64,000 bases of DNA from the human T2T-CHM13v2.0 reference genome, Homo sapiens. The stretch lies in NCBI RefSeq assembly GCF_009914755.1, contig NC_060935.1. One strand, 5' to 3'. The position numbers and the translations under genes were made by a program. This document shows, in pieces, positions 16,439-37,857 of the stretch; the stretch's first letter is position 1, and each line of letters begins with the position of its first letter. The notes under the pieces are model-generated. The model was not told the origin of the DNA. It did no database searches and saw only the letters and a list, made by a program, of their open reading frames with translations.

Positions 16439-16626
16439 TACTAATACACTTGGCTGTATCGTAGAGTATTAATAGATAATCAGGTGCTGCCACCTGCTAA
16501 AGGAATGAAGAATGAGCTGACTGCAGGTCCCATCTAAGGACTAAAGGTATAAAGCAAGTCAATTTTTTTGTGTTAACTCCAAACACTTTAATCATATAAA
16601 CAGAAGATTTACATGGGGCCTCTTAC

Positions 16627-31555: not shown

Positions 31556-31669
31556 GAATACTTATTTTGACATATGGAGAATATATATCTTTTAAAGCAT
31601 ATATGGTGCAGTTTCCTAAAGTGAACCACATTACATCAAATAGAAATTTTTAAACAAATATATATTTTA

Positions 31670-34600
31670 AAATGTTTTATTTTTAATTTTTGTGGCTACA
31701 TAGTAGATGGATATATTTATGGGGTGTATGAGATGTTCTGATATAGGTATGCAATGTGTAATTATCTTGTCATGGAGAATGGGGTATCCATCTTCTCAGT
31801 CATTTATCCTTTGTGTTACAAACAATCCAGTTATACTCCTTTAGTTATTTTAAAATGTACAATTAAATTATTTTGACTACAGCACCCTGTTGTGTTATCA
31901 AATACTGGATATTAATAATCACATTATGCAGCATGGGGTATCTGTCCCTCAAGCATTTATTCTTTGTGATTACAAACAATCCAATTATACTTTTTTAGTT
32001 ATTTAAAAATGAATTAAGTTATTATTGACTATAGTCATCCTGTTGTGCTATCAAATAGTAGATCTTATTCATTCTTTCCAACTTCCTTTTTTCCCCCCAT
32101 TAACTATTCCCACTTCCCCTGAAGCACCCAATACCCTTCTCAGCCTCTGGTAATCATCCTTCTCTCTCTATGTCTGTGAGTTCAATTGTTTTTATTTTTA
32201 TCTCACACAAATAAGCAAGAACATGTGATGTTTGTCTTTCTGTGCCTGGCTTATTTCACTTAACATAATGATCTCCAGTTCCATCCATGTTGCTGCAAAT
32301 GACAGGATCTCATTCTTTATTTTATGGCTGAATAGTACTTCATTGTGTATATGTACCACATTTTCTTTATCAATTCATCTGCTGATGGACACTTAGGTTG
32401 CTTCCAAACCTTGGCCATTGTGAACAGTTCTGCAACAAATGTGGGAGTGCAGATACGTCTTTGATATACTTATTTCCTTTCTTTTGGGTATATGCCTTTG
32501 ATATGATTTGGCTGCACCCCCACCCAAATCTCATCTTGAATTATAGCTCCCATAGTTCCCACCTGTCATGGGAGGGAGCCTGTGGGAGGTAATTGAATCA
32601 TGGGGCCAGGTCTTTCCCGTGCTATTCTTGTGATACTGAATAAGTTTCATGAGATCTGAGGGTTTTATAAGGGGGAGTTTCCCTGCAGAAATTCTCTTTT
32701 CCCTGCTGCCATGTAAGTTGTGCCTTTCACCTTCTGCCGTGATTGTGAGGCTTCCCCAGCCAGGTGGAACTGTGAGTACATTAAACCTCTTTTCTTTATA
32801 ACTTACCCAGTCTCAGGTATGTCTTTATCAGCAGCATGAGAAATGGACTAATATAGTAAATTGGTACTGATAGAGTGAAGTGCTTCTGTAAAGATACCCA
32901 CAAATGTGGAAGCAACTTTGGAACTGGGCAATATTTGGAGGGCTCAGAAGAAGACAGGAAAATGTTGGAAAGTTTGGAACTTCCTAGAGACTTGTTGAAT
33001 GGCTTTGACTGAAATGCTGATAATGATATGGAAAATGAAATCCAGGCTGAGGTGGTCTCAGATGAAGATGAAGAACTTGTTGGTAACTGGAGTAAAGGTG
33101 ACTCTTGCTATATTTTAGTAAAGAGACTGGCAGCGTTTACTCCTGTCCTAGAGATTTGTGGAACTTTGAACTTGAGTAAGATGATTTAGGGTATCTGTCA
33201 GAAGAAATTTTTAAGCAGCAAAGCATTCAAGATGTGACGGGTGCTGTTAAAAGCAGTCAGTTTTAAAAGGGAAACACAGCAAAAAAGTTTGAAAAATTTG
33301 CAGCCTGGTGATGTGATAGAAAATAAAAACCCATTTTCTGAGGAGAAATTCAAGCCTGCTGCAGAAATTTGCATAAGTAATGAGGAACCAAAGGTTAATC
33401 CCTAAGACAATGGGGAAAATGTCTCCAGGGCATGTCAGAGACCTTTGTGACAGCCCTTCCTATCACGGGCCTGGAGGCCTAGGAGGTCCAGGTGCCCCTG
33501 CTGTGTGCAGCCTTAGTGACTTGGTGCCCTGTGTCTCAGCCACTCTAGCCATGGCTAAAAGGGGCCAAGGTACAGATCAGGCTGTGGCTTCAGAGGGTGC
33601 AAGCCCCAAGCCTTGACAGCTTCCATGTGGTGTTGAGCCTACAGGTGCAAAGAAGTCAAGAATTGAGGTTTGGGAACCTCCACCTAGATTTCAGAGGATG
33701 TATGGAAATGCCTGGATGCCCAGGTAGAAGTTTGCTGCAGGGGTGGGGTCCTCATGGAGAACCTCTGCTTGGGCGGTGTGAAAGGAAGATGTGGGGTTGA
33801 AGTCCATACACAGAGTCTCCATCGGAGACTGCTTAGTGGAGCTGTGAGAAGAGGGTCTTCGACCTCCAGACCCCAGAATTGTAAAGGCATTGACAGCTTG
33901 CACTGCACACCTGGAAAAGCTGCAGACACTCAATGCCAGGTCACAAAAGCAGCCAGGAGGGAGGCTGTACCCTGCAAAGCCACAGAAGCAGAGCTGCCCA
34001 AGAGCATGGAAACCCACCTTTTGCATCATTGTGACCCAAATGTGAGACATGCAGTCAAAGGAGATAACTTTGGAGCTTTAAGATTGGACTTCCCTGCTGG
34101 ATTTTGGAATTGTATGGGGCCTTTAGTAAAACTGCTATGGAGAACAGTTTGGAGGTTCCTCAAAAAAATTAAAAGTAAAGCTAACATTTGACCCAACAGT
34201 TCCACTGCACCATTGTATTAGTCCATTTTCAAGCTGCTGATAAAGACATACCTGAGACTGGATAATTTATAAAGAAAAAAGGTTTAATGGACTCACAGCT
34301 CCATGTGGCTGGTGAGGCCTCACAATCATGGTGGAAGGCGATTCCCATGTAGTCAGTGCCTTTTATCTAGGTACAGCCTCATCCTTTTGTTTTGGTCAAT
34401 TTCTCCCATTTGGAATGGATGTATTTATCCAATGCCTGTACCCCCATTGTATCTAGGAAGTAACCAATTTCTTTTGATTTTGCAAGGTCATAGGTGGAAA
34501 GGACTTGCCTTGTCTCAGATGAGACTTTGGACTGTAGACTTTTGAGTTAATGCTGAAATGAGTTAAAACTTTGGGGGACTGTTGGGAAGGCATGATTAGT

Positions 34601-35720: not shown

Positions 35721-36127
35721 ACTATTTTTTATGTTCTTATAAAAGTATGCAGCTTGAAAATGAGGTTTTTCCACTTTTTTCATTTTTTACATTGTAATTA
35801 TTTAAGCAATTACTCTATTAAATAATTAAGGAAGAATCATTGTTTTAAATATTATTCCATCTTCATATCCAGAAACATGTGAGATGTATATAATTATACA
35901 AATGTTCTATTATGATTCCTTTTAAAGTGTTATGATTTTCTTCAAACTTCTTATGATTATTTGTAGATATTTTATATTTAACCATTTAGAATCACAGTTG
36001 TAAATGGAATGTATTTATCCATTATATCTTGTTATTTATTTATTTTCTAAATTTTAGTAGTATCTAGAAATGGTCTCGATTTTTCCTTTATCTTGCTGTT
36101 TAATCAGCAATCAGCACCTGGAATTCC

Positions 36128-36188
36128 TTAAAATTGTGTCACTTTGCTGCAGGTATCTTCCTGCCCTGCTTTTCTGGAGCATCTTCTC
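36128..36188 (-). pseudogene. SLC22A25: Orphaned ancestral terminal coding exon (exon 10) of SLC22A25: (E)RRCSRKAGQEDTCSKVTQF*
   Basis: Acceptor ..TATTTGCACCAG, 61 bp = 1 nt + 19 codons + TAA, matching the phase-2 end of exon 9; C-terminus resembles the ..QED..VTQF ends of SLC22A9/A24; ATTAAA/AATAAA at ~36099 and ~36035-36044. Confidence 0.8.
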
Positions 36189-37046
36189 CTGGTGCAAATA
36201 TAATGAAACCAACAAACAAAAAAGCTCAAAAATGAAAGACATGGACTAAACATATAAGTCCTGCATTCTTTAGGACATACTGATTCTTTGCCCACTAGCT
36301 TTAATAAAAAACATGCCTCTGCCCGCAAGTGTTTGTGTAAACCTTGTGAAGTAAAAAACCAAGCTCCCAGCCTAGGATCTGGGAAGGCAGCTTGAATAGC
36401 TTCAACTCTCACACTTGGACACCATGGCATTGACCAAAGGGATTTTGGAAAAGGCAAGAGAAGCACAGAAAAGTTTTAGAACCTTTTCTCATTCTTCATT
36501 ACTTAAAAAATTCCTTTACTTATCACTTCTTTTCCCCTTTTCCAACGCTTTTTTTCCCCCGTGAAAATTAGATAGACTGAATCTCACATGTGATACAAAA
36601 GGACTTCTCATCTGTGGGAGGGGCTCTTATTTTCTATACAGTCTCTCACAAATTCTTCAGTGTCCTGGGAGTCAGGCCTGTAAGCACTGGCAATCCCAGA
36701 CAGCTAACAGGTACACTCACTGGGCTGAGGGCTCCCCAGGGATGAGAAGATGGTGTTTGGATCCCTGCATGTTTGTAGAATACCTTCAAGAGTATGCATG
36801 TCATACCAGGGCAGGAAGGGCAGAGGTCACCTAATTTTGGTCTTTTCACCACAAATTAACCTCCTGGACAGGCTGGGCAGAGATGGTCTGTGTGATCTAG
36901 TGAGGCTCAGGGGATGTATGAGGTCACTGTGGAAGGGATGAGGATACACCAAAGGCAAAGGCACTGACTACATGGGAATAGCCCAGATCTAAGCCTTTTT
37001 GGGGGATGGTAGCCCTAAATGGTGTTTTGCTTTCCTCAGCACAGAC

Positions 37047-37296
37047 CTATAGCACAGAGCTCCTCTGAGGGGCAGCTAGGCTATTTACTCCCTCATTTTC
37101 CACATCCTGGATGCTGTCAAGAAGAGGCTGGTTCCTGGTTTCAGGAAGGAGGAGGACAACAAGGCCAGAGAGGATGGCAAAGACTCCATAGATGATCCAG
37201 GGCAGGGGTCGAGAATATATGCTTAGGATCATCATGAGGGAAGCCAGGGCTCCCCCAATATTAGCAAAGTTTCCAGTGATTCCAGTAGCTCTTCCC
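37047..37296 (-). CDS. SLC22A25: SLC22A25 last coding exon (exon 9 plus intron read-through): GRATGITGNFANIGG..LPETRNQPLLDSIQDVENEGVNSLAAPQRSSVL*
   Basis: Acceptor ..TTTTACTCCAAG, TM11-12 and LPET motif, TAG at 37049-37047; C-terminus recognised as SLC22A25/UST6. Confidence 0.92.
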
Positions 37297-37748: not shown

Positions 37749-37857
37749 CTGATTATGGAAGGAATTAGTTCATTTTCTTGGGCAGTAGAACAGGTAATGC
37801 CAAGAGAAGCAGCTCCCACACCCAGGGTTGCCAAAACCACACGCAGGGTCTGCATTT
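37749..37857 (-). CDS. SLC22A25: SLC22A25 coding exon 8 (EMQTLRVVLATLGVGAASLGITCSTAQENELIPSIIR)
   Basis: 109 bp, acceptor ..TTCTCCAG, donor GTACAA; ELxPTxxR-like motif. Confidence 0.93.

What the first reader, a model, noticed from the sequence alone, without database searches (positions are those of the whole stretch)
36128..37100. SLC22A25 lost its last splice donor (GT->GG): intron read-through and an orphaned, still-intact terminal exon
Seen: 204 nt into exon 9 the sequence is GAA AAT GA|GGGAGT, one base (37091) away from the consensus donor GTGAGT. About 0.9 kb downstream is a pyrimidine-rich region and CAG acceptor, then a phase-compatible exon (36188-36128) encoding RRCSRKAGQEDTCSKVTQF-stop, followed by polyA signals. 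Known: related OAT/URAT transporters have a short tenth exon ending in a class I PDZ ligand (URAT1 STQF binds PDZK1). Inference: a recent lineage-specific splice mutation replaced the C-tail, which may bear on trafficking and on why this transporter remains an orphan.
Basis: partly seen in the sequence, partly recalled or inferred. Interest (0 to 1): 0.8.

Follow-up and report, generated by a model that had tools for sequence, protein, structure and literature searches.

The report
SLC22A25 lost its last splice donor
One base change in the human liver transporter gene SLC22A25 destroyed its last splice site and the stop codon inside it, so the protein ends in 14 residues read from the old intron instead of the tail its relatives carry, whose coding exon now sits unused 0.9 kb downstream.

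Summary
On the minus strand, SLC22A25 exon 9 (37296-37093, 204 nt) is followed by GGGAGT (37092-37087). At exactly this codon the five nearest paralogues in the same genome (SLC22A9, A10, A24, A11, A12) all have GTGAGT.

The T>G at 37091 does two things. It removes the GT donor, and it turns the in-frame TGA inside the donor into GGA. Translation then runs 14 more codons to a TAG at 37049-37047, which is also present in the SLC22A9 intron.

The 61-nt segment 36188-36128 is homologous to the last exon of SLC22A9 and A24. It matches 15 of 19 residues of the tail used by squirrel-monkey SLC22A25.

Gene models suggest the change is recent. The gibbon model stops at the donor codon, and the bonobo model skips exactly 12 nt that fit a GT..AG interval. 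No primate DNA or RNA-seq could be read here.

The functional claim is untested. The new end, SSVL, also fits the S/T-x-hydrophobic PDZ consensus.

I found no paper describing this. It parallels the published C-terminal lesions of human SLC22A10 and SLC22A24.

The parts
37093..37296 (-). SLC22A25 exon 9 in paralogue numbering. It is 204 nt with phase 2 at both ends and encodes the last two transmembrane helices plus the juxtamembrane stretch ending ENE.
   Evidence: It aligns to URAT1 residues about 472-537 in solved structures. It is 86.3% identical to SLC22A9 exon 9 (176 of 204).
37087..37092 (-). Former splice donor, now GGGAGT. The changed base is 37091 (G here). It is T in 5 of 5 nearest paralogues.
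37047..37092 (-). Read-through coding extension. It holds the third base of the split Glu codon, 14 new codons ending SSVL, and the TAG stop at 37049-37047.
   Evidence: The hub annotation gives the CDS end at 37047. The human protein P0003 has the same tail. SLC22A9 has the same TAG in its intron.
36189..37092 (-). Former intron 9 (904 nt), now part of the terminal exon and 3' UTR.
   Evidence: One search gives the intron length (922 nt in SLC22A9; 919 or 922 nt in SLC22A24). One search gives the alignment. The part from 37046 to 36189 is 72.4% identical to SLC22A9.
36189..36235 (-). Pyrimidine-rich tract and CAG acceptor (36191-36189) of the orphaned exon.
36128..36188 (-). Orphaned exon 10 coding part. 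It has 19 codons ending VTQF, plus TAA at 36130-36128. It has no stop or frameshift.
   Evidence: It is homologous to the SLC22A9 last exon (41 of 61 nt identical). It matches 15 of 19 residues of the squirrel-monkey SLC22A25 tail.
36039..36104 (-). Poly(A) hexamers just after the orphaned exon: ATTAAA at 36104-36099 and AATAAA at 36044-36039.
31676..31687 (-). ATTAAA and AATAAA hexamers 15-26 nt before the annotated transcript end at 31661.
   Evidence: and the hub annotation.
37083..37088 (-). Nearest remaining GT (GGA|GTAAAT), 4 nt downstream of the lost donor. It is phase 0, so splicing to 36188 would shift the frame.
   Evidence: 5 of 9 consensus matches. One search gives the shifted reading.

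Best explanation
A single T>G change at intron position +2 of the last donor of SLC22A25 (window 37091, minus strand) abolished removal of intron 9.

In this gene family the donor GTGAGT sits after the second base of a codon. Read in frame, it contains TGA. The same change therefore turned that stop into GGA (Gly).

The terminal exon now runs from 37296 through the former intron and the former exon 10 to the poly(A) site near 31661. Translation continues 14 codons to a pre-existing TAG. This gives a 547-aa protein ending SSVL, in place of a 552-aa protein ending VTQF.

The former exon 10 is now silent 3'-UTR sequence. The stop lies in the last exon, so nonsense-mediated decay is not expected.

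Shown: the sequence state, the homology, the paralogue donors and the annotated CDS.
Inferred: that GG is not spliced (general knowledge of donor classes), and the branch on which the change arose. That branch is after the gibbon split and probably after the Pan split.
For: - Sequence and frame.
- SLC22A9 alignment with GTGAGT opposite GGGAGT.
- Paralogue donors: 5 of 5 nearest paralogues (SLC22A9, A10, A24, A12, A11) have xA|GTGAGT at the same codon and phase, each reading G-TGA in frame.
- Paralogue last exons: found at comparable distances, with tails ending VTQF (A9, A24), STQF (URAT1) and STSL (OAT4).
- Database models: of 120 hits, 96 carry an exon-10-type tail and 61 of those 96 end VTQF. 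Another 15 end at the split codon. Only 2 (human, bonobo) carry the intron-derived tail.
- Primate models: the squirrel-monkey SLC22A25 model (552 aa) uses a tail identical at 15 of 19 residues to the orphaned exon. The gibbon model (533 aa) stops at the donor codon.
- Annotation: the hub table puts the CDS end at 37047 and lists no exon at 36128-36188 in any of 5 transcripts.
- Cryptic donors: none is in frame. All 6 of 6 GT dinucleotides in exon 9 plus the extension are phase 0.
Against: - I saw no RNA-seq or cDNA. Read-through rests on the RefSeq model and a human protein record.
- No primate genomic DNA could be read. The ancestral T in orthologues is inferred from where the gene models stop or skip.
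- The gibbon model ends at exon 9 rather than using exon 10. Exon 10 may therefore have been little used before the change (see rival 1).
- The bonobo model would look the same if bonobo had a true 12-bp deletion.
- Intactness of a 61-nt exon says little. Few disabling changes are expected in so short a stretch over a few million years.
Confidence: 0.85

Rival explanations
1. Exon 10 had already fallen out of use in catarrhine SLC22A25, and the intron-9-retaining 533-aa form ending at the donor's TGA was the main form. On this view the T>G was in effect a stop-loss that added 14 residues. It did not cause the orphaning.
For: - The only gibbon model found is 533 aa and ends at the split codon.
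- 15 of 120 database models across mammals end there.
- PMC11116522 (passages) reports NCBI chimpanzee SLC22A10 isoforms of 533 and 552 aa, consistent with the authors' liver RNA-seq.
Against: - Such models may be prediction artefacts.
- The squirrel-monkey SLC22A25 model uses exon 10.
- The human acceptor and pyrimidine tract look intact.
- The paralogues use exon 10.
Confidence: 0.2
2. The orphaned exon is still used in a minor human isoform. This could happen by skipping exon 9, joining exon 8 to exon 10. That join is in frame because both donors are phase 2 and exon 9 is 204 nt. It could also happen by rare use of the GG donor.
For: Exon 8 ends AG|GT at 37749 and exon 9 is 68 codons, so the join at 36188 keeps the frame. 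From general knowledge, exon skipping is a common outcome of donor loss.
Against: - None of the 5 annotated transcripts has an exon at 36128-36188 (hub table).
- The product would lack the last two transmembrane helices (alignment), so it is unlikely to transport.
Confidence: 0.1
3. The GG is a private variant or an error of this assembly, not the usual human state.
For: None found. Population frequency could not be checked.
Against: The RefSeq CDS (hub table) ends at 37047, which requires read-through. An independent human protein record (P0003) has the same tail.
Confidence: 0.02

Closest known systems
Human SLC22A10 (OAT5): C-terminal frameshift from a one-base insertion at the first base of exon 10 (PMC11116522; passages read)
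   Same: Same gene cluster and the same exon 9/exon 10 junction. A near-fixed human-lineage change replaces the ancestral 552-aa end with a shorter unrelated tail (541 aa). I saw the inserted A run and both reading frames in this genome.
   Different: There the splice sites are intact and the frame shifts inside exon 10. Here the donor itself is lost, the intron is read, and exon 10 is never reached. That paper does not mention SLC22A25 (0 occurrences).
Human SLC22A24 p.Tyr501Ter, the major allele (PMC6760779; passages and supplementary tables)
   Same: It is the neighbouring paralogue and also loses the VTQF tail in most human chromosomes. This genome carries the TAG in exon 9.
   Different: It is a nonsense change that also removes the last transmembrane helix. 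It is polymorphic and has shown effects on steroid glucuronide levels. SLC22A25 keeps all helices.
SLC22A9 (OAT7), the closest paralogue
   Same: 86% mean column identity over the aligned exon 9, intron 9 and exon 10 stretch. Intron length is similar (922 vs 904 nt), the TAG in the intron is the same, and the terminal VTQF plus TAA is the same.
   Different: It keeps GTGAGT and so uses exon 10. The gorilla SLC22A9 protein ends with the exon-10 tail.
URAT1 (SLC22A12) and OAT4 (SLC22A11) C-terminal PDZ ligands that bind PDZK1 (review PMC8317579; passages)
   Same: Same exon architecture: a phase-2 GTGAGT donor followed by a short last exon ending S/T-x-hydrophobic (STQF, STSL).
   Different: Binding is documented for those two transporters only. 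No PDZ partner is documented for any SLC22A25 tail, and I tested nothing of the kind.

Membership tests
SLC22 organic anion transporter subgroup OATS4 (SLC22A9/A10/A24/A25) | Sequence membership in SLC22/MFS, with nearest similarity to SLC22A9 | tested here: met
   Hits carry PF00083 and PF07690. Exon 9 is 72% identical in protein to the SLC22A9 locus, the best paralogue. Solved URAT1, OAT4 and OAT1 chains match at E 2e-13 to 1e-6.
SLC22 organic anion transporter subgroup OATS4 (SLC22A9/A10/A24/A25) | Phase-2 GT donor at the end of exon 9, followed by a short exon 10 | tested here: not met
   SLC22A25 has GG. 5 of 5 nearest paralogues have GT. The exon-10 homologue is present but no annotated transcript uses it (hub table). 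This is a derived loss and does not argue against gene-family membership.
Class I PDZ ligand (C-terminal S/T-x-hydrophobic) | Ser or Thr at position -2 and a hydrophobic residue at the C-terminus | tested here: met
   Both the orphaned tail (VTQF) and the new tail (SSVL) fit the consensus as written in Table S11 of PMC6760779.
Class I PDZ ligand (C-terminal S/T-x-hydrophobic) | Physical binding to a PDZ protein such as PDZK1 or NHERF1 | not testable with these tools
   No binding data exist for SLC22A25 in the papers I searched. The complex tool needs chains of 30 residues or more and offers no human reference proteins, so I sent no job.
Lineage-specific splice-donor loss with intron read-through | Ancestral GT in paralogues and orthologues, with a non-GT/GC dinucleotide in the focal lineage | tested here: met
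   Paralogues: 5 of 5 have GT. Orthologues are known only through protein models: the gibbon model stops at the donor codon and the squirrel-monkey model uses exon 10.
Lineage-specific splice-donor loss with intron read-through | Transcripts that retain the intron and do not join exon 9 to exon 10 | not testable with these tools
   Only the RefSeq table supplied by the hub was available. I had no RNA-seq.
Unitary pseudogene | Disrupted reading frame or loss of essential parts | tested here: not met
   The exon 9 frame is open to the new TAG, and the human model aligns end to end with primate orthologues apart from the tail. Only the exons inside the window were read from DNA.

The most novel reading that the evidence does not exclude
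The donor loss is specific to the human lineage, arising after the split from Pan. It would then be the third independent hit on the same short C-terminal tail in the human SLC22A9/A10/A24/A25 cluster. SLC22A10 is frameshifted at the first base of exon 10. SLC22A24 has Tyr501Ter as its major allele. SLC22A25 has lost its donor. Only SLC22A9 (OAT7) keeps the ancestral VTQF end. This pattern would point to relaxed or redirected selection on the sorting or scaffolding of steroid-conjugate transporters in hominins. It would also suggest that human SLC22A25, as usually expressed, is not the form on which its ancestral function evolved. That is a practical reason to de-orphan it using the 552-aa ancestral form or an ape or monkey orthologue.
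Probability: 0.35. Interest if true: 0.65.

Novelty: new member of a known kind. Interest (0 to 1): 0.5.

Why it matters
SLC22A25 is a liver-restricted orphan transporter (PMC6906560, passages). It is linked to conjugated sex steroids only through GWAS (PMC7084758, passages).

If the human protein carries a tail born from an intron, in place of the conserved end that serves as a scaffold-binding site in URAT1 and OAT4, then experiments with the human cDNA may be testing a derived form. Work on SLC22A10 showed that great-ape orthologues transport a substrate and reach the membrane when the human protein does not (PMC11116522, abstract). The same strategy is now directly applicable to SLC22A25.

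The case is also a clean example of one base change that removes a splice donor and the stop codon built into it.

Tried and rejected
- DNA similarity searches in the same genome found the exon-10 homologue only in SLC22A9. For SLC22A24, URAT1 and OAT4 I found it by translating candidate exons after every AG downstream of the donor. For SLC22A10 it lay beyond the first locus. I found it after fetching 7 kb more.
- An in-frame cryptic donor that could rescue exon 10 is rejected. All 6 of 6 GT dinucleotides in exon 9 plus the extension are phase 0. The nearest one gives a shifted reading.
- Asymmetric protein evolution after the change was tested weakly, with gibbon as outgroup. There are 9 human-specific and 6 bonobo-specific residue changes in 512 compared columns. 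That is no clear excess, and the models may contain errors or polymorphisms.
- No paper describing the donor loss turned up in seven searches. The terms were 'SLC22A25' (69 papers, 30 listed), 'SLC22A10' with 'great apes', 'SLC22A25' with 'human-specific', 'UST6' with 'SLC22', 'SLC22A25' with 'chimpanzee', a URAT1/PDZK1/OAT4/PDZ-motif search, and 'SLC22A25' with 'stop gained' (0 papers). The original cloning papers are not in the searchable library.
- Four of the 16 supplementary files of PMC6760779 were not searched.
- I sent no complex prediction of a tail with a PDZ domain. The tails are under 30 residues and no human reference protein is offered.

Full report
**What is in the sequence**

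All coordinates are on the minus strand. The last annotated exon of SLC22A25 starts at 37296, after an AG at 37298-37297, and reads in frame from 37295. After 204 nt the text is GAA AAT GA followed by GGGAGT (37092-37087). The frame runs on for 14 codons ending SSVL, to a TAG at 37049-37047. That is the CDS end in the hub's RefSeq table.

A further 904 nt past the former donor there is a T-rich tract and a CAG (36191-36189). A 61-nt segment follows (36188-36128). ATTAAA (36104) and AATAAA (36044) come next. A further AATAAA lies 15-20 nt before the annotated transcript end at 31661.

'Exon 9' and 'exon 10' are paralogue numbering. In NM_199352.6 the read-through exon is exon 12 of 12.

**Paralogues in the same genome**

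The window's own assembly could be searched. A 161-nt query around the orphaned exon hit one other place, at the 3' end of the SLC22A9 locus (77% identity). A 1201-nt query aligned with that locus across nearly its whole length (84% and 79% in two pieces).

The pairwise alignment has 86% mean column identity over 1279 columns. It places SLC22A9 GTGAGT opposite SLC22A25 GGGAGT. It also shows the same TAG in the SLC22A9 intron and the same final VTQF-TAA.

The exon 9 translation found 20 places in the genome at E <= 10. I examined the 12 that correspond to SLC22 anion-transporter paralogues.
- The five nearest (by position SLC22A9, A10, A24, A12/URAT1 and A11/OAT4) all have xA|GTGAGT at exactly the homologous codon, in phase 2.
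- In six more distant paralogues (by position A6, A7, A8, A13, A14, A20) I see, by eye, a phase-2 GT within 0-6 codons of that point. I did not check these against annotation.

Gene names for these loci are assigned from chromosomal position relative to the hub table and from recall of the cluster order. No annotation call supplied them.

Last exons were recovered for four paralogues:
- SLC22A9: intron 922 nt, tail ending VTQF.
- SLC22A24: intron 919 or 922 nt, with two adjacent AGs as described in PMC6760779, tail ending VTQF.
- URAT1: tail ending STQF.
- OAT4: tail ending STSL.

**One base, two effects**

The donor follows the second base of a codon, so GTGAGT is read in frame as G-TGA-GT. 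Any transcript that keeps the intron therefore stops at once. Database gene models show this (my own translation P0001 was dropped before the count). Of the 120 proteins returned for the exon 9 plus extension query:
- 96 have an exon-10-type tail ending S/T-x-F/L/V/C, and 61 of those 96 end VTQF.
- 15 end exactly at the split codon.
- 9 are otherwise. Two of these, human and bonobo, carry the intron-derived tail.

In SLC22A25 the T>G at 37091 removes the GT and also turns TGA into GGA. This is why the human protein gains 14 residues rather than ending at residue 533.

The lengths fit. The gibbon model is 533 aa, and 533 + 14 = 547 for human (the 547 figure is inferred from these lengths and recalled for the RefSeq protein). 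The squirrel-monkey model is 533 + 19 = 552 aa.

That a GG dinucleotide is not used as a donor is general knowledge of donor classes. I did not test it here.

**When it happened**

No primate DNA is available to these tools, so the evidence comes from protein models.
- Squirrel-monkey SLC22A25 (552 aa) ends with a tail identical at 15 of 19 residues to the orphaned human exon. The exon is therefore orthologous to a terminal exon modelled as used in a New World monkey.
- The gibbon model (NCBI, 533 aa) stops at the donor codon. That requires a stop where human has GGA. TGA, as in all the paralogues, is the one-step explanation.
- The bonobo model (UniProt-derived, 543 aa) reads ...END and then resumes with the last 10 residues of the human extension. 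On the human DNA this corresponds to omitting exactly 12 nt, from the donor G to an AG.

The bonobo pattern is what a model projected from human would do to step over a stop using a GT..AG mini-intron. PMC11116522 notes that Ensembl ape models of SLC22A10 are bent to fit the human annotation. It could equally be a true 12-bp deletion.

I put about 0.55-0.6 on the change having arisen after the Pan split. I am fairly confident it arose after the gibbon split.

With gibbon as outgroup, human has 9 lineage-specific residue changes and bonobo 6, in 512 compared columns. Both figures look high to me for a human-bonobo comparison (my recollection of typical divergence; no call tested this), and they are not clearly different from each other.

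**Can exon 10 still be reached?**

All 6 of 6 remaining GT dinucleotides in exon 9 and the extension are phase 0, so none can join exon 10 in frame. The nearest is GGA|GTAAAT at 37088, and it gives a shifted reading.

Exon 9 is symmetric: phase 2 at both ends and 204 nt long. Skipping it would join exon 8 to exon 10 in frame, but the product would lack the last two helices. None of the five annotated transcripts contains an exon at 36128-36188 (hub table).

The intactness of the 61-nt exon is not evidence of use, because so short a stretch is expected to stay open for millions of years. Its coding part is in fact the least conserved segment between SLC22A25 and SLC22A9. It is 67% identical, against 72-87% for the other five segments compared, and only the last codons are the same.

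**Function**

The exon-10 tail ends in the S/T-x-hydrophobic consensus. PMC6760779 lists this consensus for SLC22A24 and apical renal carriers (Table S11). URAT1 and OAT4 use it to bind PDZK1 (review PMC8317579, passages).

The new human end, SSVL, also satisfies that consensus. It is therefore open whether scaffold binding is lost, changed or kept. No binding, localisation or transport test was possible here.

**Comparison with what is known**

I found no description of this event in 7 literature searches. I also read passages of PMC6760779, PMC11116522, PMC7084758, PMC4633038, PMC6906560 and PMC5865780. The original cloning papers are not in the library.

The closest precedents are in the same cluster:
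- Human SLC22A10 carries a near-fixed one-base insertion at the first base of exon 10 (PMC11116522). I saw the insertion in this genome.
- SLC22A24 carries Tyr501Ter as its major allele (PMC6760779). This genome carries it too.

Three of the four human genes of this subgroup thus fail to make the ancestral tail, each for a different reason. Only SLC22A9 keeps it.

**Verdict**

The feature is real and cleanly explained, and apparently undescribed. It is a new member of a known kind of event: lineage-specific splice-site loss with replacement of the C-terminus. Its interest is moderate. It gives a concrete reason to study the 552-aa ancestral form or primate orthologues when de-orphaning SLC22A25, and it adds a third case to a pattern of tail loss in this human cluster.

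Noticed in passing
L006 (G000:C11:63070220-63070414, minus strand; about window -45780, outside the window): SLC22A24 exon 9 in this assembly has an in-frame TAG where the paralogues have Tyr. This matches p.Tyr501Ter, which PMC6760779 describes as the major human allele.
   Followed up: partly
L028 (G000:C11, about 63300270-63300335; outside the window): SLC22A10 exon 10 begins with a run of A. The spliced frame stops after 9 codons, and the frame one base off reads through to a tail ending VTKF. This matches the one-base insertion reported in PMC11116522.
   Followed up: partly
window 16625-16626 (minus strand): The SLC22A24 exon 1 donor reads GAG|GTAAGA here, so this assembly carries a canonical GT at the junction where PMC6760779 describes the common splice-donor variant rs1939749.
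   Followed up: partly
SLC22 paralogue loci L004, L005, L006, L008, L012: The exon 9 donor GTGAGT contains an in-frame TGA in all five loci, so intron retention ends the protein at once. 15 of 120 database gene models across mammals end exactly there. The donor seems to double as a built-in stop.
   Followed up: partly
window 36128-36188 compared with L024: Between SLC22A25 and SLC22A9, the exon 10 coding part is less conserved (41 of 61 nt, 67%) than the adjoining intron (72-73%) and the sequence after the stop (79%). Only the final VTQF-stop is shared.
   Followed up: no
alignment A2, columns 449-495 (exons at window 37749-37857 and 37093-37296): Five of the 9 human-specific residue changes (gibbon as outgroup) fall in the last two coding exons, close to the changed tail. 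I did not check them against human polymorphism.
   Followed up: no
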